Assembly (NCBI RefSeq): GCF_037042905.1
Contig: NC_087251.1
Coordinates: 15,006,001 to 15,070,000 of the forward strand
Origin: Lytechinus pictus
Taxonomy: Eukaryota
Reading direction: 5' to 3'
Length of the DNA stretch: 64,000 nt
Notes under the pieces: model-generated
Databases searched by the model: none
What the model was told of the DNA's origin: nothing
What the model saw: only the letters and a program-made list of their open reading frames with translations
Position numbers and translations under genes: made by a program
Shown: positions 3,801 to 52,289 of the stretch, in pieces
Layout: the number at the start of each line of letters is the position of its first letter
Numbering within the stretch: position 1 is the stretch's first letter

Positions 3801-6800
3801 TTTTCCCATCAAATCTTTTTTCTGAACTACCCCTTTTCTTTTTTTTTTTACCTGTTCACTTTATTCTAATGTCATCTGCTGCCGAAACTACCTTAAGTAG
3901 AGCACATAAACACAAATATCAAGAACTCCATCTTTAACTCACGTATTGAAGTGCACACGCGAGCGCACATGTTAGTGCTTATTTGTTTACATACAACATT
4001 AGTACTTGTATTCCTAAGTTGCTCTTTCCCCTATTTTTCTGATCCTCCCTTTGGCCCCGAATTTGTGCTTTTTGGATGCCTTTGATTCATTTGTATTCCT
4101 GTCATATTTGTCCTAAAAATACTATTTTCTTTCATAATAGCAGCTCTGCATCATCATGCATCTTTATAATCCTCCTAATAATATCATCATCATCATCATC
4201 ATTGCTGTTATTATCATACCAATATGGTAATATATTACAGGTCATAATGCAGTACATCAGTGTGGTAAAATTAGGTCACATGTTGGAAAAGTGACAAGAA
4301 AAAAAAATGTAATCATGAAATGCTAAAAAGGGTGTGCATTGAAAGGCGATTCTTCATAGATATAAATCATGCTTCTGTTATGTAATAGTAGCTGTCTATT
4401 TCCCATTTGGTGTACATTGCACTGCATTTCCAAGTTGACCTTACCTCCTAGGTCAAATTGCACAGTACACTACACAGAGGCTAGGCTTGCAATGAAAAAA
4501 AAATTGAAGATATAAATGTTCTGGCCCACAGTAACAACAATCTGTAAAATTTGCATTTTAATTTGTGATTGTAGCTCAAGAGTGCACGGACCAACCATTT
4601 TGATCAACTTCTACTTACGGCAGCTTTCTGGATGTATGCATCTGGTATGCTGAGCCTTGATCGGATGTTATCATACATGATGGGCTGGGTGAAGGAGGGG
4701 TCGTCAAGCTCGTTATGACCCCAGCGACGGAAACACAGAAAGTCAACCACCACATCTTTCCTGAATTTGTGTCTGTAGCTCACTGCAAGCCTGCAAGCTG
4801 ATAGAACAGCCTGGAATATTGACAATAAAGCATACCCCAGGGATGCAATTATATTACAAAATTATATAGTTGCATTCAAGCGCGGAAACTCATCACACAA
4901 TTAAGACAAAATGGCATATAGACTACCAAAATCCCAACAGAGATGTACATGTATACTTTCAATCATGAAAGTAGAACAATATTGTGAACTAAAATTTAAT
5001 TCAAAATGCTGGTCAAATATGTGGTTTAAAAACAATATGCATCCAATATCACAAAGTTGTTATTTCATTGATTCAATGATATTTTGTCACACAAAAATTT
5101 GTGCTATAAACCAAAATTAACCTTCTTTAGATAGCAACAAAATTTGCATATTGTTAGTTGTTCCTTGGTCAATAAGAATATTAGTCTGTTTTTAGATACC
5201 TCAGGGTCCATGCCATTCACATGGATAACAGGATTTCCATTCATTTTGGCAATGTCACTACAGTATGGAGAAGAGCGCCCTCTCTCTGATGGTGTGGTGA
5301 AGCCAATTTGGTTGTTGACGACTAGATGTATGGATCCACCGACGGCATAGTGAGGAAGGTTGGCCATCGCAAAACATTCAGCAATCACTCCCTGTGGTGT
5401 AATAGAAAGGTAAATAAACATTCTACAAGAATGCTATTTTTCCTTAAATACTTAAAAGAGACTCTTCTCATTTTGAGGGAGGTTTATTTTTCTGGTGGAG
5501 AAATTAAAGAATTGAAACAATTGTTTAGAAAATTTAAAGGAGAAATATATTGATTATGAATATAGCCTTATTATATATCAGTGGAAAGGTAATGATGTGG
5601 AGATTATCATTTGGTCATTCAAAAATAACAAAAGTAATACATAAGGTGGAAATCGCCAATTAAAAAACGCTAAAATGCCTTTCCGAAATAGGCCTCTCAT
5701 CGGTCTCTGAATTGACTCGAATTTGATGACGTGTATGAGTGTTCGAGAGACGTGATTGGCTCTCCCATGTCAAGCTCCACTTGCATGCAAAACCTGTTGC
5801 AAGGCCGAGGGTACGTTTTCTCCACACTGTCACTGAATACTCCGATCATGAAATGAAAGAAAACCCAGAAGTTTATCTAGATTTTGGATTTTCAAATTGA
5901 CGATTTTGAAGATGAAGAGAATGATGAAGTTTCTAGCTCTAGTCAGTGATGTGGATGGAGGTAAATTAGAGGAATTACGACTATGATGATGAGTCGGACA
6001 ATAAAACTTGCATGCCGATTCGCTACCAACTCATGCAGCTGCTATAGTGCTAGCTGCACGTACCGCGGGCCAAAATAAATCCATGAAAATGAATTCCAGC
6101 CTGACCATCCAGACAGAGTCTCTTCCCTCCGTCAATAAAATTTACTCTAAAGAAGGAAAATAAGGATATAACTGTACTTACAAACAAGTGAATATATACG
6201 AACCTGAAGGCAAATCAACTCAACGAATAGCAGCAGACGATATGCAGCGACAATAAACTTTCCGTGGCTGGGATAAATTGTCACTCGTTCTGTTAGATAC
6301 AATTTCTATCTCATTATTTTGACAAAATTACGAAACTCGGGGAATTATTTATCTTTATAAGAATATAGTAACACCTCATATTATTTATAAATTATGATAA
6401 AACCTTTTTTTTTAAGCAAAAAGTTGAGGTAAATTAAAATTAGATGTAAAAGATCATCCCCAACATGCGTAGCCCGTATGTGATTGTAAACAAACCATCA
6501 CAAACACACATTGCTTGCTCGCCTTGGCTGAGAGAGTAGATGCACGTGTTGCACAGCTCTTAATCGGCATTTTGGATGGTTTGTTTACAATCACATACGA
6601 GCTACGCATGTTGGGGATGATCTTTTACATCTAATTTTAATTTACCCCAACTTTTTGCTTCAAAAAAAGGTTTTATCGTAATTTAAAAATAATACGAGGT
6701 GTTACTATATTTTTATATAGATAAATAATTCCCCGAGTTTCGTAATTTTGTCAAAATAATGACGTAGAAATTATATCTTACAGAACGAGTGACAATTTAT

Positions 6801-9800
6801 CCCAGCCACGTGAAGTTTATCGTCGGTGCATATCGTCTGCTGCTATTCGTTGAGTTGATTTGCCTTCAGGTTCGGACATATTCACTTGTTTGTAAGTACA
6901 GTTATATCATTATTTTCCTTCTTTAGAGTACTATTTTATTGACAGAGGGGAGAGACTCTGTCTGGATGGTCAGGCTGGAATTCATTTTCATGGATTTATT
7001 TTGGCCTGCGGTACGTGCAGCTAGCACTAGCAGCTGCATATGATCAGTTGGTAGCGAATCGGCATGCAAGTTGAATTGTCCGACTCATCATCATAGGCGT
7101 AATTCCCCTAATTTACCACCATCCACGTCACTAGAGCTAGAAACTTCATCATCATTCTCTTCATCTTCAAAATCATCAATTTGAAAATCCAAAATCTAGA
7201 TAAACTTCTGGGTTTTCTTTCATTTCGTGATCAAAGTATTCAGTGACAGTGTGGAGAAAACGTACCATCGCAACAGGTTTTGCATGCAAGTGGAGCTTGA
7301 CGTGGGAGAGCCAATCACGTCTCTCGTACACTCATACACGCCATCAAAAAACCCCAATTTCGCGGACGTAATTGTGCCTGTTTGAAGCATTCAGAGAGAG
7401 AACTTTAAACTATCAATTAAGTGAGTTTCATCGGTCTCCATGATAAATGATGTACACCATCGTGTTCTTCTGATTTTCCCCTTTAATTTGATATATAATT
7501 CTTAATTTTTATGATTTTCAATATATTTCTACTTTAATAACAAAATTACTTTTCACTGTTTTTACATTGATAATATTAATTATGCTTTATGGATGAATTA
7601 TCAAATCAATGAAATCTGTCCACAAGGAACTATATGCACATCAACGAACGTAGAGGGCAGCAACACTTTGCAGTATTGCTTTTAGGAAGGTCCACTCCGC
7701 TCAGATTTTGTGACCATTTTCTCCCAGAGCACTTTTTTGGAAGATTGTAGAGTTGATTTTTTTTTTTTGTTCAATTTTACTATTTATTATTGATAATAAG
7801 ACCTCCAAGAAAATATGTTAAATAATATTATTTTAGCATATTTGTATTTTTTAAAAATTTTAAAACAAAAGGTAATCATGATTTTTGTAGTTTACATGGC
7901 AATAAAAATACATAGACTGATGACATTTGTGTTACCGTTCTTCTGCTTAATTTCGCTGCCCCTACCAACTCTACACAAGCTAACACCAGAGCCAAGACCG
8001 TGATGTTCTGGTCTGGCCGCGCCGAAACTTCCCCGGTCACCTGTACCTCGGTGCGCGTACTGCGCTGCGTGAATGATAATGCTGACTGCACTGCACTGGC
8101 ATGATAATCTCGACGCGACTCGACTTAGCTAGATATGGACTTGAAAGATATAGACTTGGTCTGTCATTGATGTGGCACTATGGCGGATGAGCAACGATAA
8201 ATATTCAAGGTTAGAATTTTAATTTTCACTTAGAGTGTAGAATGTAGTCTGAAAATCTAAAATAATTATGCTATATCCACAAATCCAACCCACATTTTGC
8301 AATCCATCAGGCAAGATCGAATACGACCACTAAACAGCAAAGCCAAGTCCCAGACCCAGTCTAACGTTAGACATAATATTAGACAGCAATTATCTGGTTC
8401 ATTATCGAGCTATGTATATTCCGACGGGTCTTGACTTGAGACAAACTATCAAGGGGCGAAGGTCTATGTCACATCTACTTTTTTCATTTCATAATTTTAC
8501 AAAAATTTGTGTTAGCATATGCATGCAGCCCACCGTACCCTACCTCAGCACCGACCGGCCCGGGGCGCCGACGCGGTCATGCCAGCCATGGCGCTTGTAT
8601 AAGAGGCGGTGCTGGATTGTGTAGGCGCATTATGGTGCAGCGAAATTTAGATGAAGACGTATCAACCTCACGTATACTTGTTATCATATTGATATGCAAA
8701 GTCATAAAACTGTTGTCACCACCATGTAATATTTTATGAAAAATACAGGAACAAGTAGTTCATATTTTTAAGCATGATATTTAATGTAAAAACATTTCAA
8801 GCAAAAATAATGATAAAGAGGAAATGAAAATAAATCAACTCTACAATCTACTAAAAAAGTGCTCTGAGAGGTTTTCGGTGGTCACAAAATGACTTGGCTA
8901 AATCCGGGTGAAATTAGCAGACTGGTTTATTTATGACAGAATTTAATCCTGTTTTACTGAAGATGTACAAACAAATTGTGACAATAATTTAGTGATATAT
9001 TATTTTAAGAATTTGGTACATTATTATTTAATTTTTTATATATTTTTTGTTTTCATTGTTTTAATCTACTATTGTCATAATCTATTAGTTTACCTATATT
9101 TTGCTGTCACTCCGTGAGTGTATTGTATCGGATCATGGTTTCGTTGGCATGACTACCAAATTGCTCGCGCACTTCATTTGTATGCGCGTATCGAGTGGAC
9201 CTTCCTAATAGCAACACGCTTGTGTGTTGCTGCCCTCTACGTTCGTTGATGCACATTGTCTATTCTCTGGAAGGTATTCCAGCTTTAATAAAAAACATAT
9301 TTTATGGTTCCAAAAAGGTAATGCATTCTTCATTGATGTTTGTAATCCATGAGGTAACTCATATATATCATCATCTTTAGAACTCCAGAAAGGGTTCAAT
9401 CCAGTACCTAATTATTCACAGTCCAGAGACCTATCCACTACACTCTGACACATACAGTACGACAAAGAAATAAGTGGTTAGGGCCAAATGGTAATGTGAA
9501 GGTATCAATCAATTTTGAAAGCACCCAATTTTTAGTTTCTCATAGAATCAGGTATGATGGTAATTTTTATTTATGTGTCATGGGCAATTTGTTTACCCAC
9601 TCTTTTCACAGTTCACACATAGTCTTTTTAAACCTCATTGGTGTGTTCACACCAATATGCTGTGCACAAGTCAACCAATTTTCATTTCATTACAACAAAC
9701 CACCACATACCTGGGCAACAAAAGCTGCATCACCATGAAGAAGAACGTTCATGACTTTATCGCCATGACAACAATCAGATGAGGGATCAGCAGCATAGTC

Positions 9801-15800: not shown

Positions 15801-18624
15801 TAGGACCACTTCCCTGGGACCCTAGTGAATTGGATTGGGGCAATGGGGATAATGTCTGCATTGGACAGCTATTCAGGAAGTCCTGAATTGCTGTCTGGAA
15901 CACATTAAAACTAAATAATTGACAATATCAGTGAGAGTAAATAGCATGGACCCAATATTGTCTATTCATCAACATCAATTTCAGGATATTTTGTTACTAT
16001 CATCATATTGTGCAGCCATACCAAACTGCAAGTATGCTTCATTACAAATTTCAAGTGAAATGGGCAATGCACAAAAGGTAACACAAGGTATTTAATCTGT
16101 CAATTATAATATTTTGTAAAGTAGTTTGTGTTGTACATAAAAAGTGTACCCTCACTGATCATAGACTCCATCAAACTCTGACCACAAAAGAAGCGTTAGT
16201 AGGGTCCTGCTTGGATCACTTCTGTTCCATACATGTATTTATATGAATATCATACGATGCCATTCCAACCCCACCATCTTTCTAAAAATCAACATTATAA
16301 ATTTATATTCAAAGAAAGTCTGCCTTCTATTAGCTTTGTTGTAAAATCATTGTAGAGTCTGTAATACGCACTGGAGTTGCAACAGCCCCAAAGGATCCAG
16401 CGTTGCCCTTTTGTGTCCATGTTCCCTGTAGGCTATTACGAGGCGGAGCAGATTGGCATTCTCAATCCTATTCTGTATTACAGCTTTGTCTGAAAAGAAA
16501 ATTAAGACAATCTGATAAATCAAATTAACCTTAACTCAAAATTTGTGAAAGGGCAGTTGCTAGCTTTCTAGTCTTTACTGTTTTATGAGGGCCTGCTCAA
16601 ACCCCACAATACAAATAAGTCGCAACTCACAAGTCAAAGTTTCCCGAAATTTATCTAGAAACTTCAAGACAATATATTAATCTGGGCTTCAAATCAAATT
16701 TAGAAAATGAAAAATAATACTGCACTGTCTTAATAATACCTGCTAAATCTTCATGACCCGCTATCAAAATATGATTCATGAGAGAGAGAGACAAGAAGCA
16801 ACCCCCCCCCCTCTAGACTGCCAAAAATGAGTGGAGATTAGTTTAGGAAAAGTTCACTTGATCTGTAAACCCCCCCCCCCCCCCCCCATTCAAAATGCCA
16901 AAATAAACATCATTCTATGAATCTCAAAGATCAGAAAATATTATTGGGCCAAAGGCTAAGGCTAAGCCCAAACTTATCCCAGTTTTTCACTGGTACAGCT
17001 ATTAGATATTAACAAGTATACCTAGTACTTGTCAAATATATGAGAATCCTACCTAGGATAAAAAACACAGACTCTAGAGTGATGCAGAGGGGCCTAGGAT
17101 ATTCTTTGCATAGGAAATACAAAGCCTTTGAACACTTGCTTCTGATTGCTCGTGGTCGAGTGGTCAATTACAGTTTTCACTTATTTCAGGGGTGGTATTT
17201 GAGGTAATTTTATCTTTAAAATATTTTGTCTTTTAAAATGAAATTTGTATTCTGAGAGACATTTTATCTCTCTGGTAAAGTTTAAAATTTTATCTGCACT
17301 AAATTTTTATCTTGCATAACTAAACAGAGCAAAGCCCATGTAGACATATCCATCGCGTTTCTAACCATTGTAACGCAGATGATATGCTTGCGCCCATGTT
17401 AATTTGAAGAAAAATTAAAACCTTAAAAAACCTTTTAAATATCAATATAGCGTGGGGTTTATTTCATCTCTGCAATGTTCATTTCAGCAATATTTCTAGG
17501 TTATTTAGCTCCAAGTGTTGAATTGAAAATGAAGAAAAATAATATAATCATCAAGAGCAATAGTACCTTAACATTATTCCTGTAGTCGAATTAGCCTATT
17601 TCATAAGGCTTTTCTTGACCAATATTGTCTTTGAAATGATGCTTGTAATGACGCGATAAAGACATCCCCCCAACAGATGAGAGTATTTTCATTTCTTTAA
17701 AAGAAATCTCTGTAAAGATGCGCTAGCGCATTTAAATTCAATAAATAGACGCAATCTCACTCTTTTGCCACACGTCCTGGCAGAATGGATATTCATTGGT
17801 TAAATAAATGAGAGTGCTACAAAAGTCAAAAGAGCGTTTCTCATTGGATATTGTTTCAATAGTGTACATCTTACACAGATAAAATGAAGATGATATGGTT
17901 CTCAGAATACCAATTTTGAGATATATTTAAGGGTATTTTACGTCACTGATTTTAACAATGATAAAATATTTTATTTCAGCCAAGATGAAATGGATCTTAG
18001 AATTAATACCACACCACTCATTCAATGAACAAGGTTAATATGATACACACCAGGTTTCTTAGCGCTCTACGCTGCACATTTGGATTCCCAGCCTTGATAG
18101 CAAATTATAACATCTTTTTCAGTTGTAACTTGATAATAATATGAACAATAACAATAACATTTAGATTGAACTGTAGATCTAGATCTAATTGACATGAAAT
18201 GGAAATTAGGGCGATGATGAATTTTGACAGAGCCTGAGAGGTCTTCGACTACATGTACGTTACATGTTGTTAGACACTAACTAGACAGTAACACTTTTTT
18301 CTTGACTGCGCGTTGCGGATGCCGGATGGGCATAATTTCATAAATAGCGAATTTGGAATTCGATTCATATTTCATGACATTGGATTCTTAAGGTATTATC
18401 TTCTTACCTGTAAAAATATTCTCCCCCTCTGCTTGTTGCTGAAGGCCTATCAAATTAAGCGGCTGCCAAGCCGATTGTCGAAATCCGTACACATCGCGAC
18501 CAAAATTGTACGAGCGGGATGGTTGGTGTTGTACGGCGGGAACTGCCCCCGCTAAGCGCCGTCCGTATGGCGTTGCCAGCTGCGACAGAATCCTGGCACG
18601 ACTATGTCGAAAGAAACGCAACAT
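649..18624 (-). CDS. DHTKD1: DHTKD1 ortholog, mitochondrial 2-oxoadipate dehydrogenase E1 component; 5' 16 coding exons, 3' end outside the window
   Basis: Manually spliced with GT-AG at every junction and consistent phases. Exons: 18408-18624, 16372-16489, 15439-15509, 14521-14624, 13717-13824, 12620-12731, 12060-12221, 11106-11179, 9711-9860, 5200-5391, 4619-4810, 3495-3672, 2546-2607, 2182-2302, 1292-1431, 649-805 (2158 nt, ~719 codons). Motifs: [12 protein letters not shown] (DHTKD1-type; OGDH has KRFGLEG), [14 protein letters not shown], ThDP motif HGDAAF...[36 protein letters not shown]. The Arg-rich, acid-free N-terminus fits a mitochondrial presequence. Confidence 0.95.
1292..1431 (-). 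CDS. DHTKD1: DHTKD1 exon 15
   Basis: [26 protein letters not shown]...QRGFFE; AG/GT. Confidence 0.95.
2182..2302 (-). CDS. DHTKD1: DHTKD1 exon 14
   Basis: [44 protein letters not shown]. Confidence 0.95.
2546..2607 (-). CDS. DHTKD1: DHTKD1 exon 13
   Basis: [25 protein letters not shown]. Confidence 0.92.
3495..3672 (-). CDS. DHTKD1: DHTKD1 exon 12
   Basis: [21 protein letters not shown]...[23 protein letters not shown]. Confidence 0.88.
4619..4810 (-). CDS. DHTKD1: DHTKD1 exon 11
   Basis: AVLSACRLA...[20 protein letters not shown]...QKAA; AG/GT. Confidence 0.95.
5200..5391 (-). CDS. DHTKD1: DHTKD1 exon 10
   Basis: [33 protein letters not shown]...[12 protein letters not shown]. Confidence 0.95.
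5538..7482. mobile_element. TTAA-flanked non-autonomous element (T2/Kolobok-like) with a long internal palindrome
   Basis: TTAA|AGGAGAAA...TTTTCCCCT|TTAA ends (5534-5537, 7483-7486). Inverted arms 5722-6499 and 6575-7348 with a 75-bp spacer. Confidence 0.75.
7639..9251. mobile_element. Non-autonomous DNA transposon, ~1.6 kb, with perfect 28-bp TIRs
   Basis: CATCAACGAACGTAGAGGGCAGCAACAC at 7639-7666 and its reverse complement at 9224-9251. Subterminal inverted repeats (TAGGAAGGTCCACTC; ~7725-7760 vs ~8832-8866). Flanking direct repeat is CA, or GCAC if the TIR is trimmed by 1 bp. Confidence 0.8.
9711..9860 (-). CDS. DHTKD1: DHTKD1 exon 9
   Basis: [14 protein letters not shown]...[20 protein letters not shown]. 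Confidence 0.95.
10639..10871. mobile_element. Degenerate MITE
   Basis: Imperfect TIRs GCCCATATTCTGAACTC / GACTTCAGGATACAGGC. Confidence 0.4.
11106..11179 (-). CDS. DHTKD1: DHTKD1 exon 8
   Basis: [29 protein letters not shown]. Confidence 0.93.
12060..12221 (-). CDS. DHTKD1: DHTKD1 exon 7
   Basis: [19 protein letters not shown]...[12 protein letters not shown]. Confidence 0.95.
12620..12731 (-). CDS. DHTKD1: DHTKD1 exon 6
   Basis: [41 protein letters not shown]. Confidence 0.95.
13260..13514 (+). mobile_element. SINE body and 3' end with (CAT)n tail
   Basis: GC-rich island with GCACGTTAAGAACCC...AAGAGTAGGGG, resembling a conserved metazoan SINE central domain, ending GGCACTATACAAATGCTGTG(CAT)n. 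Confidence 0.5.
13717..13824 (-). CDS. DHTKD1: DHTKD1 exon 5
   Basis: [40 protein letters not shown]. Confidence 0.9.
14521..14624 (-). CDS. DHTKD1: DHTKD1 exon 4
   Basis: [39 protein letters not shown]. Confidence 0.9.
14921..15210. mobile_element. Palindromic MITE
   Basis: GAGTTACGATTGATCTGATCAATCACAACTATGGA (~14935-14969) is inverted against TCCATAGAGTTATGATTGATTGGATCAATCGTAAGTC (~15154-15190). Confidence 0.55.
15439..15509 (-). CDS. DHTKD1: DHTKD1 exon 3
   Basis: [27 protein letters not shown], phase 2 to 1. Confidence 0.85.
16372..16489 (-). CDS. DHTKD1: DHTKD1 exon 2
   Basis: [43 protein letters not shown] bounded. Confidence 0.9.
17187..18015. mobile_element. Degenerate MITE in DHTKD1 intron 1
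   Basis: GGGGTGGTATT...AATACCACACC ends; internal inverted GTATTCTGAGA / TCTCAGAATAC. Confidence 0.4.
18408..18624 (-). CDS. DHTKD1: DHTKD1 exon 1 (mitochondrial presequence)
   Basis: ATG at 18624, [15 protein letters not shown]...RDVYGFR...NIFT, donor CAG|GTAAGA. Confidence 0.85.
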
Positions 18625-18983
18625 GTTCCGCCTTCCAGTTTCTTTCCTTCTCAAAATTAAACACTATAATGGCAAAATGAAATGTATGATATATGTAGAT
18701 ACAAATTCAGGAATATTCCCAGGGTTTCTCGTTTGATTCCTTGCCAAAATCTTGATGTACTACTAGACTAACTTTAACGTTATTTGTCCCGACCCCTGGC
18801 TTGTTGCAGGCGCCTATGCATCAAAATGTCTAGTCTAGTTAAGTTCTAGACGTAGACGATATTAAACGAATTTATTTGCACCGATATATACGTTCTATTC
18901 CGTGCGTACGCCCAGCCGAGTGTGCGCGCAAAACCGAGAACCTGTACTCCGAGAAAATATCGTCTAGACCAGTTGCTCCGCGG

Positions 18984-19005
18984 TGACGTCAGAGGTCAAA
19001 GGTCA
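18984..19005. promoter_or_regulatory. Consensus CRE (TGACGTCA) adjacent to a perfect DR1 (AGGTCA-A-AGGTCA)
   Basis: TGACGTCA at 18984-18991 and AGGTCAAAGGTCA at 18993-19005, about 360-380 bp upstream of the DHTKD1 ATG. Motif match only; function not shown. Confidence 0.35.
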
Positions 19006-19539
19006 ACGGACGAGTGCTCATGAATATGCATGAGTTACTTGTCAATCTCGCTGCGCCGAACAACAGTGCAACGTTGTTTACGTTTTCAATCGTTATCAGC
19101 TGTGTGCATACATTGTGCACGTGGGATTGATGTAGTAGATCTATGCAGGGACGTGAGCGTCCGTGATCTATGTGATGTGAATACATGTACATGTATCATA
19201 CGACAGTTTGAGATAGTTCAAATAGACATTTCATTGTTGGGAAATTACTGTTACATGCATAATAGTTATTTCACTCTATGTGCATATCTTGGTTAAATCT
19301 GTGGGTATGATGTTACCATCATGATATATGAAAGAAGGTGCTAATGTACCAAATTTCAAACTTCAAAACAATACAGACTAGTTTTTCCACTTTACTCAGA
19401 TGGAATAATTAATATACATGTTTAAATGATATATTTTATATTCTTCTTCATCTACACATGTAATTATATAAAGGCATTTTGTCTTAGTATGGGTATTGAA
19501 AATTCAGACTCATACATGTAATTAAACTCTCATTCTTGT

Positions 19540-20093
19540 CCCGGGGGGCCAGTTCCATTCACGAGTGGATACCATGCGCGACCATGGGGTCTCGAAAAGC
19601 ACCCTAAACACGTAATTTCCATATTCTGAAAATGCACCCCTTAACAAGTATTGGCATGTGAAACCCTACCCTTAACAAGTATTGGAAACAAAACGATACT
19701 CTTGGCAAATATTCCCTGAAATGAACCCCTAAACAAGTACAGGAATGTTTTATTGTTACGGGTCCTTCGGTCGTCGGCTTTACCTAATTTGGTTTAGTAC
19801 GACCCCATCTTCTACACCTCGCGCAAATTGGACTCTAAACACGAAGTGTTGGGGCAAAAAGGACATCCTTTATAAAACATTTTAATTTTGTTTTATCATC
19901 CCCGCAAATTCGACCCTAAACACGTAATTGTCCTAGCGAAATGGATACCCTTTTTTCATTATTTTTGTGTTTTTGACACCCTTATCACGTTACGTACGTA
20001 ACGTGCCCTATCGTGAAAAAGACATCCTTTTTACGTGTTTTTTTGGTCGCGCATGGTATCCACTCATCAATGTAAGTGGCCCCCCCCCCCGGG
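19540..20093. mobile_element. MITE with CCCGGG termini and an 8-bp TSD, nested in the MULE
   Basis: TSD ATTCTTGT at 19532-19539 and 20094-20101; TIR core GAGTGGATACCATGCGCGACC / GGTCGCGCATGGTATCCACTC. Confidence 0.85.
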
Positions 20094-20189
20094 ATTCTTG
20101 TGAATGGATCACATCACGGTACATTTTACTGTGGGCACTTGTAAATATATCATTTTCAAAGTCTTCTTCACATATTTCACTGTCAAAGA

Positions 20190-22352
20190 CATGGGTGTCG
20201 ATCACGGGGGGGGGGGGGGGGGGTGGGGGGATATATCCCCCCTAATATGTCAAGTGGGGGGATGGCCTGTATTATCATCCCATCCAATAATTTAGGGTAG
20301 AAAAATTATAATAATGATGATGAAAAATGAAAAAGTATGATCATGATAATTATAGTGATGATTATAGTATGCCATCAATCAGTTTGTTTCCGTCGCAATG
20401 TGTGTATATTGTTATTAAATAAAAACATTCTTTTCCAGGACTTTAAAACAGATGGGTGGAGGTTCAAGATGACAAAAATTTAAATGTTTATGTATATGAT
20501 ATTTTTAACACATGACATAAAAGGACTCCGATGAACTAAAAACAACTTTTGTTGATAGGGTGTTCTATCCCACCAGGCAGTGGTGAATAAATACATTTTA
20601 ATAAATCAATTAATTCAAAAGGGTGGGAAAATAAACGGGTGGAAAAATAAACGGGAGTAAAAGGGTGGCAAGATAAACAGGGAAAACCCCATGGACGTAA
20701 ATCCCAGAGGGGTAAATTTTGAAAAAGTACAAAAAACTTTTCCCAGATTTACCCCTCCCCACATCCAAGTGCATGATGTTTGTTCCATTTAATCTACAAC
20801 CCTTTTGAATATCACTTCATTTTTGTTATGTAAAATAAGTAAATCGCCAGGGATCGCTGTCATAAAAAGTTATTTGCAATGAGGTCTGACATGAGGCGAA
20901 AGATTTTCGGACATTATTGAGACTACCTGAAATAGATGTTGTTCTATTTCACCTTTTTCTTATTCATTCCCAGAAAATTCAGAGAAAAAGAAAAATACCT
21001 TTGCGTTTCTATAGAGTATAGGCTTATCACTTCATTTATTTGCCTGGTTATACACACTTTACCGATGTATGTCATGGTATTTATATATTAAGTTCGGCAT
21101 TCAGTAACTTGAACAAGAAAATATACCAAAAGCAAGATGTGCACAAAACGAAAGTCACCCCTACTTGTATATCCAAATACCTTGACTTGAACGATAACTT
21201 TTGGTCAATAATATTTTGCAGGAGAGCATTGATGTCCTCATTACCTATCTATGTGGAAATGAGGTGCCTATAGTCATGAAAGAGTGAGCCCACATCAAAT
21301 GCAAAAATTTCACTTTAAAAAAGTCATAATGGTCGTTTGGTGATCAGTAGCTCATATATGGTGCCTTTGTTGTATGCGGTTGGATGTAATTGATATTAAA
21401 ACATTTTATCATGTGACCCCATCAGATACCTCTCATGAAAATATTGAGGTTCAGTGAGCTCAATATAATATGATCATATTTTTACAATTTTTTTAATAAG
21501 TGAAATCAATTGATGGTTTCAGAAAGAATAATCATTCATTCTCTTATAAAGCGGATATGAGGATATGAACATCGGATGTTTTTTTCATGTTATTCTTGTT
21601 ATTGTTATGGACTTGAATAACTAAACTTGATTATTTTTTTCTTATTTTGGCAAAAAGAAATATCTTTTGAGTTTGGAAAGGGATGGCAGTTTTACATTCT
21701 ATATGAGCACACTCATGCGGTACGTAAATTTCATTTTAACACATAATGTACATTAGCTGATATTACACACTGATGGTTCAAGAAAATGTTGGAGAAATAT
21801 CATAACATGACAGTTGAGTTTTGATTGTTTTAATGTTTGTTTTTGTTTCATGCACTTATAAAGTATTTAAAACATGTTAAATTCCAGGGTTAAAATCGTC
21901 TAAGGAATGACGGTAAGCCCGATGGTACACGAGAAGCCACACAGTTTGTAATTTGTGCTAGTCTTATATTTTTTGTCCGAATGTGCATTTTATCATCATG
22001 CATTAAGAAGAAAAAAGATATTGCCAGTCGGGTTAGATTTAAGAGAGAAGTTGTATACATCATGCTCAATAAACATATCACTTTGTACATGGTCCAGACA
22101 ATTTTTGTCATTTTTCTTTCGTATGGGTTTATAATAAGCTTACTTGTAACACAAATTGAATTAAAAAAAATTATATAAGTAAAGTACACTGCAACAATTA
22201 AGCAATTTCCAAGAACACCATGCATATCAACCACTCTCAAATGTCCTAACTTGTAATTTTAGTGGGGGTAATGTTGAAAGATCCCCATCCACAAGAACAT
22301 TTGTGTCAATCACCCCCCCCCCCCCAACCAAGAATACCGATCGACACCCATG
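20190..22352. mobile_element. hAT-type non-autonomous element nested in the MULE
   Basis: TIR CATGGGTGTCGATC / GATCGACACCCATG; 8-bp TSD GTCAAAGA vs GTCAGAGA (1 mismatch). Confidence 0.8.
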
Positions 22353-22812
22353 GTCAGAGAGTATGACAAAAAGGGTTGAGAAGTACATGTACTTTGTACA
22401 GAGCTGTGAAAGGGATAAGGAAAACAGAATAAAAATCATTATTGATTTTTAAAAGTAGATTAATCTCACAAATGTGGATTTTGATGCGTGCATCAGATTT
22501 TGGAAGAAAATCTTTGCAATTGTCCTTGGAACTTTTAGTTTATTTATTTACTTTACATGAACATGTAGATAATGCGTACAATTATTTTTGTTGTTCAGCT
22601 ACATTATTATCTAGCTACATGTAGCCAGGAAATGATATTGCCAATGATGTACATGAAGCCTCTTCGATAAAGACCCTGACCGGTGTAAAACAATCATATA
22701 TTAAAATAAAGGTAATGATTCTTCCAATAGTTAAAAATATTAAATAAAAATCAAAGAAACTACTCCTCCAAAGTACGCTTCGATTGAGCAGCCCCCTGGA
22801 AATGATGACGTC

Positions 22813-22872
22813 CAGTGGCGTACCTAGGATTTTCCACAGGGGGAGCAAAATCGGCCGCCAAAAAATTTGACA

Positions 22873-22907
<35 letters not shown>

Positions 22908-23073
22908 TCGAGTTCATCAGGGGGGCGATAAAGGTCTTCAAGCTGGTCAGGGGGGGGGGGCAAAAAAAGGTCTTTTAAGCTCGTCAGGGGGGGCAGGTAA
23001 ATGTCTTTTGTATGGGTTGTGACTCGTCAGGGGGGGCAGAGTGCCCCCCCTGCCCCCCGTAGGTACGCTAGTG
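22813..23073. mobile_element. hAT-type MITE nested in the MULE
   Basis: CAGTGGCGTACCTA / TAGGTACGCTAGTG ends; perfect TSD ATGACGTC at 22805-22812 and 23074-23081. Confidence 0.85.
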
Positions 23074-24029
23074 ATGACGTCACGTTGTGTCAGGAGGGTT
23101 GTGATTCTGTAGGTTTGTGTACAAAAGCATTGGGTATTTTCTTCCATTTCCATGTTATGAATCCATTTTTTTTTCGTTTTCAGATGAAAATGGCACTCAA
23201 AATTATTCACTGTTCAAATTGTTGTTAACCTACAACTATTCACTACCTTTTTTGTGATTTCTTTGTTTGGCTCTTATTGGGCCTAAATTGCTATGTCAGG
23301 AAAAGTTATTATACATAATCTAAATGCAGATAGAATTGAAATTTGCGCCAAGTAAGCAGGAAATAAATATGGCAAAAACTATAGTTCAAAACGGTAGATT
23401 TCATAAATTCAAGCTTGTGGGTAAAAATATATGTGATATCCCTCTGTGATAGAAGTGAAGAGAATGAAATGCGTTATCTGGAAAGCAAAAAAATCACCCA
23501 GTGTTTCTGTGTACAAACCTATGGAATCACGACGCTTCTTACACAACGTGACGTCACGGTCTCGAGGCAGGTGAAAAGCACAATAAAGCCTATTTTCTAA
23601 GCGGGGTTCGAAGCCCGATAATTGGAATATTCTTAAGCAAAATACTCAGCTGGGAAGCAGTGAAAATTAATATAGCATACCTTGCTGTATTTAGTAGCTT
23701 ATAAGCTTTCGATTGGTATATAATTTATCAATTTCATTTTCGGGTCCGGTCTGGATCTATAAATAAAGGCACCTTTTCTCATTACCTTTGAAATACAGTA
23801 TTTATGAAATATATTTTTGCAGCCATTATGAAAGAGCATTATGTTCAGATCTACATGTACCTTGCCAGTTAATTAAATTGCTAGTAACTATTCCATTGCA
23901 GTGTAACTTTTACATGTAGTTTGCATAGGCGGATCCAGCTTTTGGCGAAAGGGGGGGGGGGAGGGGGACCGCCGAGCGGCGCACATATTTTTGCACTATA
24001 AATGAAAATGTTGAAAAAGGGGTAAAGTC

Positions 24030-24750
24030 AAATTCAATTCAAATTCAAATTCATTTATTTCACTTCCATCAAACAAAAACAAATTGTATACCATATATAA
24101 ACATAAATATTTGTATCCGTTGCAAACAAAATTAATAATACATATGTTGTGAAAAAAAAACACTTAGACGATTTGGGCAACACATTGTAGGTTTTAAATA
24201 TATATACTATTTTTCAATAGAAATTAAATTAAGATGGAAATGGAGGAACCCACTAAAAAGCAATGCTTGTACAATGTGGGCCCCTCAAGATATAGATAAC
24301 ACAACAAATAACAAAATAACAAAGTATAAATACAGATAATCAAATGAGAAAAGAATGAATAAATGAGAGGGAAATACTCACAAAATAAATACAAAGTAAT
24401 CAAAAATATACAGTTTGGTGAAGGACAAAACAACCCGTCCTAAAAATATCTACCCTTCCCACCCCCCCAGAAAAAGAGAAGAAAAAAATAGGGGGAGAAT
24501 GCCCTGAGAAGATTGATGGGTGCTGCTGTACGTAGATAGAACACATGCCGTCGTGGACTCAAGCAAACTGGATTCAATGATGTGTATAAAAGGAGAAAAA
24601 ATATATAAAATAACCTGGAAAGAATATAATGCACGAAAAATGTGATTGATGCCGTTAAACAAATAACCGGTAGGAAGGCGGATAAGCGGAGAGGAGAAAA
24701 TAGAGGAGGGGATAGACACAATAATGAGCACATCTGAGAAGGACTTGTGT
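24030..24750 (-). mobile_element. LINE (CR1/L2-like) 3' UTR fragment
   Basis: Ends in AATAAA plus a (TTTGAA)n-like tail; contains the GGAGGAACCCACTAAAAAGC...GCTTGT motif shared with the LINE 3' end at ~31630-31820. Confidence 0.5.
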
Positions 24751-25476
24751 CAGATTTTTTTTTTTTTTATAAAAAAAGGATAATAATTATTTTATGTTTT
24801 AATTGTAGTTTAAAGTAATGATGACTTGACAGAAGTCTGACCCTGTCAAATGCTCTTTTCAAAATGTATGATTTCCAGTCATGCCATTTTGCATGACCAC
24901 ACGCAGATAATATTTTCGGGGGGGGGGCAAATCTCGAACATATTTTTGAAAAATAAAAATAAAAACGATAGAGTAAACGGACCGAGCTGCTCATGTGGCG
25001 ATTATTTTTTTTTATAAAGTGTAATAAAAGTATTTGGTACACATCTCACATTTGCACATTTTTCATAGTTTTCATGAAATGTTAAGGGAAAAAATGTGTT
25101 TTCACAACAACTGATCGGGAATTCCCCCCCCCCCTTCCCCCTTGCTGCGTACGACCATTCCCTGAAGTCCACTTAAACATATATCATTACAACATAAAAT
25201 ATACATGAATTTAGACATATAATCTTTCTTAGACATATATAGAGAGAGATTGAAAAACTTATTAAAGAAAGAAACAAGCAAAAAGTAACACAAAATCTCG
25301 TGTACTAACCCTTTTATTGCGATGAGGCCGATACTTGTGTATATTAATTGAGATGCAATTTTTTTACTATATATACACAGGGGCGTCGATATTTTTTTCA
25401 CATTGGGGGGGGGGCAAAATCATGAATCAACTTTCCAACGGCGCTCGATCACACAAAACAAACAAACCCACACACA

Positions 25477-25513
<37 letters not shown>

Positions 25514-26159
25514 CTGAATTTTTTTAGTAAACTGACCTGAAAATAGGAAAAAGGTGCCTTTTAAAGACTGTTTGTAGTAACTCATGAGGAGAATACATAT
25601 CTCACTACACAGATAATGCGAGTGCCGAGGGCGAGCTGAAATTTCTTTATATTCTGACCAGAAAGCTTGATATCCTCTGCATTTTGGTACCTATGATTAA
25701 GATGGGTATCTAAAAAAGACAAAACATGCGAGCGCAAAGCGCGAGCTTAAAATTTTGATATTTCGATCTGAAAAAAATGACAGTTTAATGGACGTTTTTA
25801 ATAAAGAACAAGATTATATCCAACAAAAGATTATTGCAAATCGAAGCGGGACTTCTTTTGAGGTTAAGAACTGAGAACGGGACATTCTATTCACCTATTT
25901 AATCATGAAAAGTGTGGGGTTTTGCTACAGAAATGGTGCGAGCGCGAAGAGCGAGCTGAACATTTTTGTATTCCAATCTGAAAAGCGGACAATTTGAGCA
26001 CGATTTTAAACAAAGAACGAGTTGTGTAGCTCAATATCGCTTGCTGATTTCTGTGTAACATTACCATCTTATTTTATTTTTTACATGCGGAATTATTGGA
26101 GGAGGGGGGGGGGCAAAACGATATGTTTGCCCCCCAATTATTTCTATTGGTGGGGCGAA

Positions 26160-26367
26160 GGACTATCTTGGCCCCCTGACGAGCTTGAAAAAAAAGCCTT
26201 GTTTGCCCCCTGACGAGCTTGAAGACCTTTTTTTGTTTTGCTTGTCAATTTTTTTTCCAGGTACGAAGTCCTTTATTTGTGATTGAAGACTTTTTTTTGC
26301 TTGTCAATTTTTTTGGCGGACGGTTTTGCCCCCCCCCCCCCTGTGGAAAATTCTAGGTACGCCACTG
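26160..26367 (-). mobile_element. Second, partial copy of the 22813 hAT-type MITE
   Basis: Ends CCCCTGTGGAAAATTCTAGGTACGCCACTG, the reverse complement of the start at 22813. Confidence 0.65.
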
Positions 26368-26594
26368 TTTAAAGTGCTATACTGTACGTACAAATATGAC
26401 CGACTTGTGAGTTTTGTTTTGGTCATGGTTCTTTAGGATATTTTTTGTTCCAGAGAGAGTTTACTCAGTCCACTTCAATATATGCAAAAGGGAGACAATA
26501 TTACTGTATTCTTGTTCTACTGCAAATTCCAATTATTGTTTGGTCAGCCATATTATGAAAGAACAGTACATTTCAGACCAAACTTGCCAGTTAA

Positions 26595-27189
26595 AGGACA
26601 AGTCCACCCCAACAAGCTGACTTGAATAGATAAAGAAAAATCAAACAAACATAACTCTGAAAATTTCATCAAAATTGGATGTAAAATAATAAAGTTATAA
26701 CAATTTCAAGTTTCGCTTAATTTTTCAAAACAGTTATATGCACATCTTAGTCAGCATGCAAATGAGGGGACCGATGATATCATTCACTTACTATTTCTTT
26801 TGTATTTTATTTTATGAAATATGAAATATTTTGATTTTCTCGTCATTGTCTGTTAACAAAGTTTCAATCCTCCCTGAACACATGTAATTCCATTATTCTA
26901 ACATTTTGTGGTTCGAGCAAAGGGGTACTAATATTGTCGAATTCGTAAAAATTGAAATATTGTATTATTCAAACAAAAACAAAAGAAATAGTGAGTGAGT
27001 GACATCATCGTCTCTCTCATTTGCATATCACCGAGTTGAGTATAGAACTGTTTTGTGAAAAATAAGCCAAATTTTAAAATGTCATATCTTTCTTATTTTA
27101 CATCCGATTTTGATGAAATTTTCACCATCATTCATGTTTGATTTGTCTCTATTTATTCAAATCATTTTTTTCTGGGGTGGACTTGACCT
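26595..27189. mobile_element. TTAA-flanked T2/Kolobok-like MITE nested in the MULE
   Basis: TTAA|AGGACAAGTCCACCCCA...TGGGGTGGACTTGACCT|TTAA; internally palindromic. Confidence 0.85.
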
Positions 27190-29244
27190 TTAATGACTTT
27201 GCCATTATTTTCCTGCTATATATTACTGTCATGCGAACAAAAGAAGCAACTCTGTGGAACAAGTTTATGAGGAACTGTGTAAAATTGTCATTGTCATTTT
27301 ACATGTGGAAATATAGAATTTCTTGCTTTTTAAGTGACTCCATTTAGGAAACTTGGGGCCATGTGACTTCAATTAAACTGGCATCATGAAGAAATTACAT
27401 AATTAACCCAAATCAAGGAAAGTGTCAATTTTGAAGGATATAAAGTTGCTACCCTCTTTCCATATATACCCAGTAGGTATATTCAAGAAGACATCGTGGC
27501 CTCGGAGGAAACTTTCGAGAGCTTTGTTCTGTAGGATCTTCAAAGTCGTTGTTCCCAACTGTTTGGACATATGCAGGATGGAATCTCTGATAGAATGACG
27601 TTAATTTCCCGTCGGCATCACACCATATATGAAAAAAAACGAAGATAAGTGATCAGGACTTGTCTGATTTGGTAAACACGCAAGAAACTGAATTTGGAAA
27701 CCGCGTGCTGTATAATTATGTATAGGCCTACAGTACACAATACAACCAGGGAGTTGGGAGTCTCCCTGATACAACAGCACGGCAGACGGTACAGTACACA
27801 AGTCTATGGCTTATGTTGTGCTGCTTTGTGCGATCCGATTGATTATGTAATCCATATACGATAGTCTACGCTCAAAAACCTTATTGTAGGTATCAGGGGA
27901 AACATACACGATACGATTCATTTATGATGTTTTTGTGTGTTTAATTTGATTTCTTTTATAAATTATTTACAGCAAAAAGTCCTTTCTTAGGTAATTAATA
28001 TTCATTTTATCGGTAGATCACACCATATTTCTCAACCCAGCAATCTTCCCTGCTGTTAACAAAGACTAGCAGCTGAACGGCAGGCGTGTCCACTTTTAAC
28101 GACTTTCCCTCAAAAATCTGAGGGAGTGACGTCACCGCGGAGCAACTGGTCTAGACGATATTTTCTCGGAGTACAGGTTCTCGGTTTTGCGCGCACACTC
28201 GGCTGGGCGTACGCACGGAATAGAACGTATATATCGGTGCAAATAAATTCGTTTAATATCGTCTAGAACTAGACTACAAAATGTCTAAATGCAGTACCGC
28301 TACTACTATGTACTAGCTACTACCTAGCTATATTATACGTATACCGGTAGTTAGTTTCGGATCGGCGTCGGCACCTATTCTCGATTCAATTTCAGAAACT
28401 AATTTCAACGACAGTCGAAATCAATTTTGTGGGACTCATTTTAAAAGCGCTGGAGTATTTTATTATCTTTTGTTCTTAGAAAAAATATGCTTAAATTTCT
28501 ACATTAGACTTTATGTATTTTCAAAACATTATTTGTATTTCATTTAATAAGAAAATAAGTCTTGATTAAAGAAAATCACACGATGGGGGTGTGTTGTGGG
28601 TGTGTCCGAGGCCTACACCCATGCGTACACCCCCCCCCCCCCATGCGAAACACAAGGCCAGCATTGAGAGAAGGATTTAGTGGTCTAATAAGTCGAAAAC
28701 CTTGCTATAAGATCCATGAAAACACAAATCACATGTTCATCAGCTGCATCAGCGCGGGGGGGCAGGGGGCAGTTGCCCCCCATTAATTCAGAAAACTTAA
28801 ATTTTTTACTGAAAATTTTCACAAAATTCACCAAAAGTATGCACCAAAACCTACAATTTCACTTGACACAATGCAAAAAAGTTTATGCATACGCGTGCTG
28901 CCCCCCCCCCCCCCCCCGGTGAAAAGTTTTTGGGTAGGCATTGGTCATATGGCCAGTCATATCAAAGAAAACTGATTAAAAATTATTGCTTTCATTTACA
29001 TTATTCAAAGTAATCCCCTCTTTAAAAAAAAACCTTGCCTTTATTCTGCACCTATTCTCCTTTCTTGCCAAATTATCATTTTATTATTTTTTACATGTCA
29101 ATTTCGCACGCCCGCAGCTCTGTTCCCGTATCCATCATCATGGAGGAAAAACATTATGACGTGCTGAAATAAAGTTTTGCCTCCATGATGAAGGATACAA
29201 TGATGTACGATATTTGCTCATTGCAGCGTAATGGTACACGCACC

Positions 29245-38457: not shown

Positions 38458-41400
38458 TAATCACCTAAAATCTACAGTTTTCTTGTTGCTTCAGTTGTTC
38501 GCTGTTTTGTTTGTCTTTGTGTGTAGTGCTTTGTTTTTGTCCTGTTTTCTTGTATGTTTTATCGGAGTTTCTTTCTATTTATTAGTTTTCGTCTTATCTC
38601 GTCCAACTGCCAATTTCTACTTGCACTTTCCTAAACTTAAATCTGCTTAATTTATATACCAGGGATATAATATGTTGTTTCAATTTCCACATAGTTTATA
38701 AGCATATAAAGCTTGACCCCCATTAGTTTTCTTTTAGTATTCAATTTCAATTCAAATATTTATTTCCAAATCATTTAAAAGAATACAATGAGAACAAAAT
38801 TATACGTACATAAAGAGAATATAAACAACAACAAAAACAAAAGCAAAAGTATGAACAGAACATAACCGGAACAAATAGTGGTATTAATGAAATAATAACA
38901 GGCACATAATTTAAAAAATGAGCAAAATAATGAATGGAAATGGGGCATGCACAAAAAAGCTACAAAAAGGCTTGTTAAAACGCGCATAACCAAGATAATC
39001 ATAATATCAATCGCGAGAATAAAATTCGGTATTATGGTATGGATGCGGCAAGTACCAAAGAATAAATATAAATAAGAATCATTATCATTTAAAAAAAGAA
39101 CTTAATCAAACAAACGAAAACGTATTATATTGACCCTTGCTAATTTTAGTGAAGAAATATATATTTTAATCACTTATTTATTGTTGGGATCTCTCATCTC
39201 TCATAAACAAGCTGGGATTTTCAATGGATTCCTTTTTTTCATTTCTGTACTTTATATTTTGCTGTGAAATGCAAATTTAGTTGAAATAAAAAATTAAAAA
39301 ATCACTCAATCAATCCTATTATTTGCTCTGTCCTACTATCAAACTTCTCTTACAAAACTCGGTCAATGAATAGAATAAATTGATTATTTTGGAAGAAACA
39401 GAGTCACACAAAATTAGCTGAATATCAACTCACAAGTTCACGATTTATTTGAACATCAAAAGTGATACTATACACCAAATCCCGGTGCAAATGGGGTGTA
39501 CGATACATGCGTACACCTCGCAAAACCATTGAGGTGCAAGTTAGCTCTTATGCGAGAGTCCGTGTCTGTTGTACACCCATGTACTCTTTTCGTGCACCCC
39601 ACCAGTCTCGCTGATAGACGTATGGTATAGGTAAAGTTGATTTGTGATCGAAGATTACCCGAAATAACAATGCCCTAACGCCACACTTTACCTAAGTGAA
39701 ATGATTTGTTAAATATGTAATATTTATGGGATGATTATTGTTTCAAAAACACATTTGATTACGTATACATTTGGAGAAACAGTAAATAGAGCTATTGAAT
39801 CACAACCATCAGCACAAGTCAAAAAAGAATCGGATCATAGCGGGAAGAATCTTGACTGCAGATAAAACGAGGTGAGTTTGAGTCTCAACTAAGGTAACAA
39901 AAAGTCGATACAGAAAGTGAATGGACCGGAAGTCTCGACAATCTATTTTTAATTGTAGGTGGGGGTACATTATGCACCCTCAGGGGTAGACGTGTACAGA
40001 TGGACACTCCAAACAGGGGTGCACACTGTACACCCCTATTCGGGGTGTACGTGTGCACCGCTATAGGGTACTCGTATAGGGACAAATCTGTGCACCCCTA
40101 GGGGTGTAAAATTGAACCCGTATTTCTTAGTGTGTACTACTACTACTACTACTACTACTACTATAGTCCTTCTATAGAACCATACATTTTACCTTGAAAT
40201 CTTCTACTTTCATAAGTATAAGAATGGTATATATTTTTACATCCTTTATTACATTTAGGGTCAAGCCGGTTGAACGAAAAGTTTGCACAGTTAGCAAGTC
40301 GTTTGAACAAGATTCATGATGGATTAGTACAACGGAGAGTAAACCTTACACAATACATGTACATTGTCAATAGAACATCTTACCGACGGGTGTTAAAATT
40401 GCTATGTGATTATACTAACAAGAACACTTCTAATTGATAATTTCACTGCAGTTGATGATATCGACACTGTGTGGTGTCGGTTCAACACTGACAGTAGATG
40501 TTTGGTGTTCACTTTACACTCTCGGTGGTGATTTAAATGAGTTGCTTATTTAACACCTGACCTTTTTACAGTATTCAATCAAAACATCGCGAAAATCAAG
40601 ACAATAAACGCCTCAGAGAATATTTGAATTTCACCTAATATCGTACATTATCAATCCATTTGTTTGATTTCCATGATAGAGCCCTTCATCCATTTTTAAT
40701 TCCAACTCATCCCTGTGCCACTTGCGACTGCCCAAAGACCGTTAAGATTGGCGTGGTGACAGCAATTATACCACCATCCTCCTTTATACGTCGTTTTCAG
40801 TATCACGATCATAGGTGTAGAATGCTGAGTTGATATGATAGAACAATGCATCACCTTTACAAAGATAATAAAAGGACAATCATCATACTTGAAGCGTAAT
40901 AAAAAAGTATGAAAGATATGTTTTGCTTTGGAGATTACCCATGACACTCTTCATCCATATAGTTGTGGACATATTGGCCCGTATAAGCGATGGTCTAATG
41001 CAACACACCACTAACTATTTCTCCATAAGCGCATGTGTTAAAAATGTGGATTGATAAAACCACTAAAAGATTAAGAGATCTAGAAAATTAAGAGATCATC
41101 AAATATCCTTGATTTTCTGAGAATAAGATAGTATGTTTTCAGTTTTTTTTCTGACGGGGTCTGAAACCCAACATAATCTTTATAGCTGCAGCAAAAGTAA
41201 TGACAGGTATTCTTTGGCAACCAATTAATTCCCCATAAAACACTAAAAGGATCAATACAAATTATAGTGCTTAACTGGACTTATCTGAAGCAGTAATAGT
41301 TCCAAATTATGTTCATGTGATAAAAAGCTCTTACATGTGCATCACTGATTTTGTATGAATTTATTTCTATGAATGACGTCAAAGGTAAAATTCTGTTTAT

Positions 41401-50080: not shown

Positions 50081-50117
<37 letters not shown>

Positions 50118-50166
50118 CGGAAAAGCGGCGCCTATAGTCTCACTCTGCTATGCAGGTGAGACAAAA
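49021..50166 (-). mobile_element. Helentron-associated (HINE/DINE-1-like) non-autonomous element with internal tandem repeats
   Basis: Subterminal inverted repeats GTCTCACCTGCAT (49043-49055) / ATGCAGGTGAGAC (50150-50162); (GCC)n microsatellite 50061-50117; about six 153-192-bp tandem units (GATGTTCAG at 49112, 49275, 49428, 49590, 49753, 49945); A/T-run insertion site. Confidence 0.65.
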
Positions 50167-52220: not shown

Positions 52221-52289
52221 TACACACACACACCCTCACACTCACACACACATATATATATACATATATAAAGTTACTTAAGTTACTAA

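What the first reader, a model, noticed from the sequence alone, without database searches (positions are those of the whole stretch)
18822..28285. 9.4-kb Mutator-like composite transposon in the DHTKD1 promoter: fresh ends, old and heavily nested interior
Seen: perfect 9-bp TSD CAAAATGTC; 139-bp TIR cores that are identical; a left end only 206 bp upstream of the DHTKD1 ATG; at least five nested elements inside (one with a mutated TSD); and no transposase. Established: 9-bp TSDs, long TIRs and a preference for gene 5' regions typify MULEs, and non-autonomous cargo-carrying Pack-MULEs are well known in plants but little described in animals. Inference: an old, TE-laden element was recently mobilised as one unit, or its TIRs are being homogenised. 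Either way it displaced the original DHTKD1 upstream region (now after 28285) by 9.4 kb.
Basis: partly seen in the sequence, partly recalled or inferred. Interest (0 to 1): 0.8.

Follow-up and report, generated by a model that had tools for sequence, protein, structure and literature searches.

The report
Gutted AcademH transposon at DHTKD1 start
A real 9.4-kb jumping element sits just upstream of the metabolic gene DHTKD1; its end sequence and a broken scrap of a DNA-unwinding (RecQ-like) gene make it most likely a gene-less copy of the known AcademH type rather than a Mutator element, and its two arms were likely copied one from the other.

Summary
The structure is real: perfect 9-bp TSD, identical 139-bp TIR cores, 206 bp from the likely DHTKD1 ATG, at least five nested repeats. 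The Mutator label fails. The tips read TAGTCTAG, like published Academ consensuses (11 of 12 seen start TAG) and unlike MULEs (0 of 28). A 9-bp TSD plus a helicase points to AcademH, so this is a non-autonomous derivative. Other copies end at the same base at other loci; no empty site was seen. Three side features: the left end is 11 bp longer than the right; both arms share letters that no sampled copy carries, which suggests arm-to-arm copying; one RNA contig of the host gene starts 6 nt inside the element. The scan found AcademH relics and long/short ends before, on other DNA of this and other genomes. Verdict: new member of a known kind, modest interest.

The parts
18408..18624 (-). Likely DHTKD1 coding exon 1 (ATG at 18624, donor at 18408)
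   Evidence: Translation; RNA contigs of runs X1 and X2 match with 0 differences up to 18408 and then leave the sequence; downstream exon 5107-5433 matches DHTKD1
18822..18830 (+). Left 9-bp TSD
18831..18852 (+). Long left tip (22 nt before the core), starts TAGTCTAG, folds a 6-bp hairpin
18853..18991 (+). Left 139-bp TIR core, itself bounded by an inverted motif pair; CpG-rich
19540..20093 (.). Nested high-copy MITE, perfect 8-bp TSD
   Evidence: read depth
20190..22352 (.). Nested TIR element, 8-bp TSD with one mismatch; holds a further insert near 20577-21465 that other copies skip
22813..23073 (.). Nested MITE, perfect 8-bp TSD; skipped in related sequences (joint 22795>23072)
24025..24832 (.). 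Nested insert with 5-bp flanking repeat; skipped in related sequences (joint 24024>24833)
26595..27189 (.). Nested very high-copy TTAA-flanked MITE with old arms (105 matches in 130 bases)
27466..27618 (-). Broken 5' relic of a RecQ-like helicase gene, pointing inward: candidate ATG 27618, stop at codon 6, homology 27591-27466 ending in motif I (PTGY); nothing further
28127..28265 (-). Right 139-bp TIR core, identical to the left
28266..28276 (-). Short right tip (11 nt before the core); other copies leave the sequence at 28276-28278
28277..28285 (+). Right 9-bp TSD
28286..28450 (.). CpG-rich host DNA, inferred to be the displaced upstream half of the DHTKD1 promoter region
   Evidence: CpG o/e 1.74; adjacency inferred from the TSD, no empty-site read seen

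Best explanation
This is a TIR element with a 9-bp TSD, TAG tips and a broken RecQ-like helicase scrap, most likely an internally deleted, non-autonomous AcademH transposon that was likely moved by enzymes from an intact copy elsewhere. Shown: the ends, the TSD, the helicase relic, nested repeats, and the same terminus at other loci. Inferred steps: (1) an ancestral AcademH lost its transposase and all but about 45 helicase codons; (2) MITEs and other repeats filled the neutral interior; (3) a transposase supplied in trans paired the short (11-nt) and long (22-nt) ends, cut the unit out and inserted it with a 9-bp stagger into the CpG-rich DHTKD1 5' region; (4) at some time in this copy's lineage one arm core was copied onto the other; (5) the host gene is still transcribed from the filled allele, with its 5' end at or near the left tip.
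For: AcademH makes 9-10-bp TSDs and is the helicase-coding Academ lineage (PMC10045372 passage; PMC10799480 passage). Termini: 11 of 12 Academ consensuses seen start TAG, 2 exactly TAGTCTAG; 0 of 28 MULE consensuses do. Relic: best hit XP_041453184.1, a RecQ-like protein of Lytechinus variegatus, 64% over 42 aa, E 5.9e-8; 5 of 6 hits carry Pfam DEAD. That protein is no closer to any human RecQ (E 1e-10 to 3e-5) than to bacterial RecQ (1e-13), so it is unlikely to be a cellular orthologue. Other loci: loose ends at 28276-28278 in 9 reads of X24, 6 contigs of X1 and 6 of X9 (14 of 33 rows shown). Arm copying: at 28164 all covering records of 4 runs, and at 28139 those of 3 runs, differ from the window, yet both arms of this copy carry the window's letter. 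Seven private changes in 283 subterminal bases predict 6.9 arm differences, 0 seen (P 0.001; 0.06 at the lower 95% rate). Filled allele: an X1 contig runs from 18836 to the donor at 18408 with 0 differences.
Against: No transposase piece was found (30 interior frames against Pfam; one frame in the Atlas), so the link to AcademH rests on TSD, tips and a 44-aa relic. The defining paper (Kojima 2020) was not held. The Academ consensuses seen are labelled Academ-1, not AcademH. No labelled AcademH helicase was available for a tree. RecQ helicases also occur in KolobokH. TSDs of other copies could not be read, and no empty site was seen (no coverage at 28304-28351). The arm-copying count rests on one contig each from two runs, with 24 table rows hidden. 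The 5'-end evidence is one contig with 6 nt inside the element; the X2 contig starts at 18779, outside it.
Confidence: 0.85

Rival explanations
1. Mutator-like Pack-MULE that captured a RecQ-like gene fragment.
For: 9-bp TSD, long TIR and position at a gene 5' end. Animal Pack-MULEs exist (Ssk-FB4 in Drosophila; PMC8277862 passages).
Against: 27 of 28 animal MULE consensuses seen start with G and none with TAG; the tip matches Academ. No MuDR piece was found. The relic's nearest named relative is unlikely to be a cellular RecQ orthologue.
Confidence: 0.04
2. An Academ-superfamily non-autonomous element of another lineage that picked up a helicase scrap from a different transposon (a Pack-TIR of TE cargo).
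For: The interior is a patchwork; only 44 codons remain; no transposase ties the ends to the helicase.
Against: The relic sits about 0.5 kb inside the right arm, points inward and starts near the protein's first residue, as a native gene would. Other copies hold the same right-hand segment contiguously at about 97% identity. AcademX makes 3-4-bp TSDs.
Confidence: 0.07
3. Not one unit: two short TIR elements or an assembly or polishing artefact frame unrelated DNA, and the identical arms are artificial.
For: No single read or contig spans the element. The middle (20236-25372) has higher depth than the ends in X24 and X8, so it is partly a separate repeat family. No empty site was seen.
Against: One TSD pair brackets the whole unit, with chance about 7e-6. 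Each end has a single outward tip. An X1 contig independently reads the left junction. Collapse or polishing would be expected to pull arms toward the family's common letters, not private ones (inference).
Confidence: 0.04

Closest known systems
AcademH lineage of Academ DNA transposons (Kojima 2020, Mob DNA 11:15; not held, known here from passages in PMC10045372 and PMC10799480)
   Same: 9-bp TSD; helicase of the DEAD/RecQ type; TAG tips as in Academ consensuses of PMC10294476 supplement 31.
   Different: No transposase; helicase reduced to a broken 44-codon relic; most of the interior is nested repeats. Long/short ends and arm homogenisation did not turn up in my literature searches (listings only).
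MULE / Pack-MULE and animal Pack-TIRs (PMC8277862)
   Same: 9-bp TSD, long TIR, cargo between ends, site at a gene 5' end.
   Different: Tips start TAG, not G; no MuDR relic; the cargo identified is other repeats, not a host gene. Pack-TIR cargo has a median of 224 bp.
KolobokH (PMC9587614)
   Same: DNA transposon with a RecQ helicase.
   Different: Reported from fungi only; Kolobok TSD is TTAA (recalled), here 9 bp.
RAG/Transib 12/23-type unequal ends (recalled; lead from note e1-7787493)
   Same: Tip motif and inner core separated by spacers that differ by about one helical turn (11 against 22 nt).
   Different: Only one element measured here; no biochemical evidence; 9-bp rather than 5-bp TSD (recalled).

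Membership tests
AcademH (non-autonomous derivative) | 9-10-bp TSD | tested here: met
   Perfect 9-bp TSD; criterion from PMC10045372 passage
AcademH (non-autonomous derivative) | Academ-type terminus (TAG...) | tested here: met
   Both tips TAGTCTAG; 11 of 12 Academ consensuses seen (of 100) start TAG, 2 TAGTCTAG, 3 TAGTCCAG. These are Academ-1-labelled, so the test is at superfamily level
AcademH (non-autonomous derivative) | RecQ-like SF2 helicase gene inside the TIRs | tested here: met
   As a broken 5' relic only: 27466-27597, E 5.9e-8 to a RecQ-like protein; no further exon with 13 homologues
AcademH (non-autonomous derivative) | Academ-type DDE transposase (in the element or in an autonomous partner) | tested here: inconclusive
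   None in 30 interior frames by Pfam; PMC5751038 says Academ transposases lacked a Pfam match in 2017; no genome held to look for a partner
AcademH (non-autonomous derivative) | Other copies, each with its own 9-10-bp TSD | tested here: inconclusive
   Same terminus with other flanks in 3 of 4 runs; paired flanks not readable
AcademH (non-autonomous derivative) | Helicase groups with labelled AcademH helicases in a tree | not testable with these tools
   No labelled AcademH protein available; relic is 44 aa
MULE / Pack-MULE | About 9-bp TSD and long TIR | tested here: met
MULE / Pack-MULE | MULE-type G-starting terminus | tested here: not met
   27 of 28 MULE consensuses seen (of 38) start with G, none TAG; this element starts TAG
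MULE / Pack-MULE | MuDR transposase or relic | tested here: not met
   No transposase family among 30 interior frames
MULE / Pack-MULE | Captured host gene fragment | tested here: inconclusive
   None recognised; about 2.8 kb of interior is unassigned and no genome was held to trace it
KolobokH | TTAA target duplication (recalled) | tested here: not met
   TSD is a 9-mer

The most novel reading that the evidence does not exclude
AcademH transposition pairs a one-turn and a two-turn end (11/22 nt, a RAG-like rule) and rebuilds one arm core from the other, possibly with its RecQ-like helicase, so gutted, repeat-laden copies keep matched ends and stay mobile for long times; landing at gene starts, the CpG-rich TIR tip can take over as the start site, as at DHTKD1 here.
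Probability: 0.15. Interest if true: 0.72.

Novelty: new member of a known kind. Interest (0 to 1): 0.33.

Why it matters
As a single locus it is a good example of a little-studied transposon group and a caution: 9-bp TSD plus long TIR does not mean Mutator in marine invertebrates. It offers a natural test of a promoter cut in two by 9.4 kb while the gene appears still transcribed. If unequal ends and arm-to-arm copying prove general for AcademH, they would give the unexplained helicase a testable role and mean that TIR identity cannot be used to date these insertions.

Tried and rejected
No whole genome is held, so the genome-wide copy search could not be run. The 44-aa relic found nothing by Pfam, word-indexed homology search or PDB sequence search (only chance hits); the exhaustive phmmer search found it (one of its 6 hits, P0003, is an unrelated beta-helix protein). 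A 27-base TIR pattern had 0 matches in metagenome contigs and the helicase alignment gave no confirmed locus (142 candidates). No Rfam match in 18300-28700. The Cys-rich frame 19024-19293 has no credible relative. No RNA holder was listed as such; I used the laid reads instead. Horizontal transfer was considered because run X8 covers the element but not the host flanks; rejected as unsupported, since low coverage of a multi-copy repeat gives the same pattern. I first read the 11 extra bases at the left tip as decay; note e1-7787493 suggested a long/short rule, and the offsets 22 and 11 fit, but decay is not excluded from one copy. I also considered an intron after motif I; no next exon was found and contigs of X1 and X8 cross that place without a gap. 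The 5722-7348 foldback element is not Academ-ended, so it gave no second test. Supplements 1-12 and 25 of PMC10294476 held no Academ entry; the supplements of Kojima 2020, which would bear on AcademH termini, could not be seen.
Full report
Observation. The element runs from 18831 to 28276 between two exact copies of CAAAATGTC. A 9-base match at two fixed places has a chance near 7e-6, and no other TAG-ended pair in the window has similar arms. The arms share an identical 139-bp core, 18853-18991 and 28127-28265. The left TIR begins 206 bases from the ATG at 18624. The gene is DHTKD1 by a downstream exon (E 4e-26 to human DHTKD1, 4e-17 to OGDH). Exon 1 is assigned indirectly: two RNA contigs match the window without a difference up to the donor at 18408 and then leave it; the rest of those contigs was not displayed. 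Both host flanks are CpG-rich (o/e 1.08 and 1.74 against 0.70 for the window), which fits an insertion into a promoter region. Five nested elements have flanking repeats, and related sequences in public runs skip three inner stretches (joints 20576>21466, 22795>23072, 24024>24833). About 2.8 kb of the interior is not assigned to a nested repeat in my partition.

The minus strand at 27597-27466 reads as the start of a RecQ-like helicase up to motif I. An exhaustive phmmer search gave 6 hits; 5 carry Pfam DEAD and the best is XP_041453184.1, named RecQ-like in Lytechinus variegatus, 64% identical over 42 residues, E 5.9e-8. Longer relatives come from echinoderms, corals, sponges and molluscs, and the three I printed start right at the helicase core. 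The best hit is no nearer to any human RecQ than to bacterial RecQ, so it is unlikely to be a cellular orthologue; a transposon origin is my inference. With 13 homologues as queries no further helicase exon was found. The relic has a stop at codon 6 of its candidate start and loses homology after PTGY. Contigs of X1 and X8 cross that break without a gap, so other copies are broken there too.

Classification. PMC10045372 states that AcademH makes 9-10-bp TSDs and encodes a helicase, while AcademX makes 3-4-bp TSDs (passages); PMC10799480 lists DEAD and Helicase_C for AcademH (passages). The defining paper, Kojima 2020, was not held and I saw nothing of it. In supplement 31 of PMC10294476 I saw the first bases of 12 of 100 Academ and 28 of 38 MULE-MuDR consensuses: 11 of 12 Academ start TAG, two of them TAGTCTAG as here, while 27 of 28 MULEs start with G and none with TAG. 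Repbase classes non-autonomous elements by TSD length and termini (PMC4455052 passages). KolobokH also carries RecQ but is reported from fungi only (PMC9587614 passages). No transposase turned up in 30 interior frames, chosen from the 187 frames; the test is weak, as PMC5751038 notes that Academ transposases lacked Pfam matches (passages). I file it as a non-autonomous AcademH derivative, about 85%.

Other copies. Laid on the right end, 9 reads of X24, 6 contigs of X1 and 6 of X9 leave the sequence at 28276-28278 into other flanks, and one X1 contig carries the left-end interior next to the core (14 of 33 rows shown). So the terminus is exact and occurs at other loci. Paired TSDs could not be read. 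No record covered 28304-28351 and no empty site was seen. An X2 contig bridges two nested junctions at 26331-26650 with 2 differences and 2 gap letters, and another covers 27168-28156 at about 97%. If these come from another locus, part of the cargo predates transposition and the unit moved loaded; an allele of this locus is not excluded. The middle of the element (20236-23971) shows strand-biased RNA at depth 13-58 against about 1 at the ends, so it belongs to a more abundant repeat transcribed elsewhere.

The ends. The core motif begins 22 nt from the left tip and 11 nt from the right tip, a difference of one helical turn. Earlier notes of this scan (unchecked) report the same for other Academ elements; my measurement is one more case and cannot exclude two small duplications in this copy. 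A search for Academ, asymmetric, TIRs and Transib found 0 papers. The arms are not simply young. At 28164 every covering record of four runs reads C and at 28139 those of three runs read T or A, while this copy has T and G, mirrored in the left arm. In the adjoining 283 bases, 7 sites show X1 and X8 agreeing against the window; at that rate independent arms should differ at about 7 sites, and none do (P 0.001, or 0.06 at the lower 95% rate). One arm was therefore likely copied onto the other in this copy or its donor. This rests on one contig per run, with 24 rows hidden, and does not date the insertion. Searches on TIR homogenisation gave listings only, none read, so I do not claim it is unreported.

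Effect on DHTKD1. An X1 contig runs from 18836, six bases inside the element, through the TSD to the exon 1 donor with no difference (one end letter unaligned); the X2 contig starts at 18779. An empty allele would match only two of those six bases, so X1 likely carries the insertion and still transcribes the gene. Whether the TIR acts as promoter is untested.

Mechanism and verdict. Shown: ends, TSD, relic, nesting, other loci. Inferred: internal deletion, filling by repeats, cut-and-paste by enzymes supplied in trans, arm copying, promoter displacement. Rivals: Pack-MULE 4%, another Academ lineage with borrowed helicase scrap 7%, not one unit or artefact 4%. Cargo-bearing TIR elements are already described in animals (370 Pack-TIRs, and a Drosophila Pack-MULE; PMC8277862 passages). 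The scan noted several similar AcademH relics on other pieces of this genome and nothing near this window. It is a new member of a known kind; interest 0.33, carried by the arm copying, the unequal ends and the position at a gene start.

Noticed in passing
window 40655-50348 against 55014-61415: Inverted, diverged duplication (75-86% in seven blocks) of a multi-exon gene with Fibrinogen_C exons at 42901-43170 (-) and 59861-60175 (+); each side has a nearby tandem array (49097-50060, 62496-63588).
   Followed up: partly
window 5722-7348: 1.6-kb foldback element (arms about 90% alike over most of its length) in a DHTKD1 intron; ends are not TAG-type.
   Followed up: partly
window 18992-19032: Just inside the left arm: a GGTCAA direct repeat and the near-palindrome TCATGAATATGCATGA, which look like transcription-factor sites (nuclear-receptor and octamer-like; recalled); also present in another copy in part (loose end).
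   Followed up: no
window 20236-23971: Strand-biased RNA from related repeat copies (first mate on +, depth 13-58 in X24) over a stretch with no recognised ORF.
   Followed up: no
window 23819-23870 and 26546-26594: A diverged repeat of about 50 bases in two unassigned parts of the interior; may be an old internal duplication.
   Followed up: partly
window 52079-52594 and 44290-44772: LINE-like reverse-transcriptase relics; the first has a weak RVT_1 hit below the cut-off, the second none.
   Followed up: no
loose ends at 28276-28278: Flanks of other copies in RNA runs contain CpG dinucleotides, which would fit insertion near gene starts, but RNA data are biased toward such sites and most rows are mixed consensuses.
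   Followed up: no
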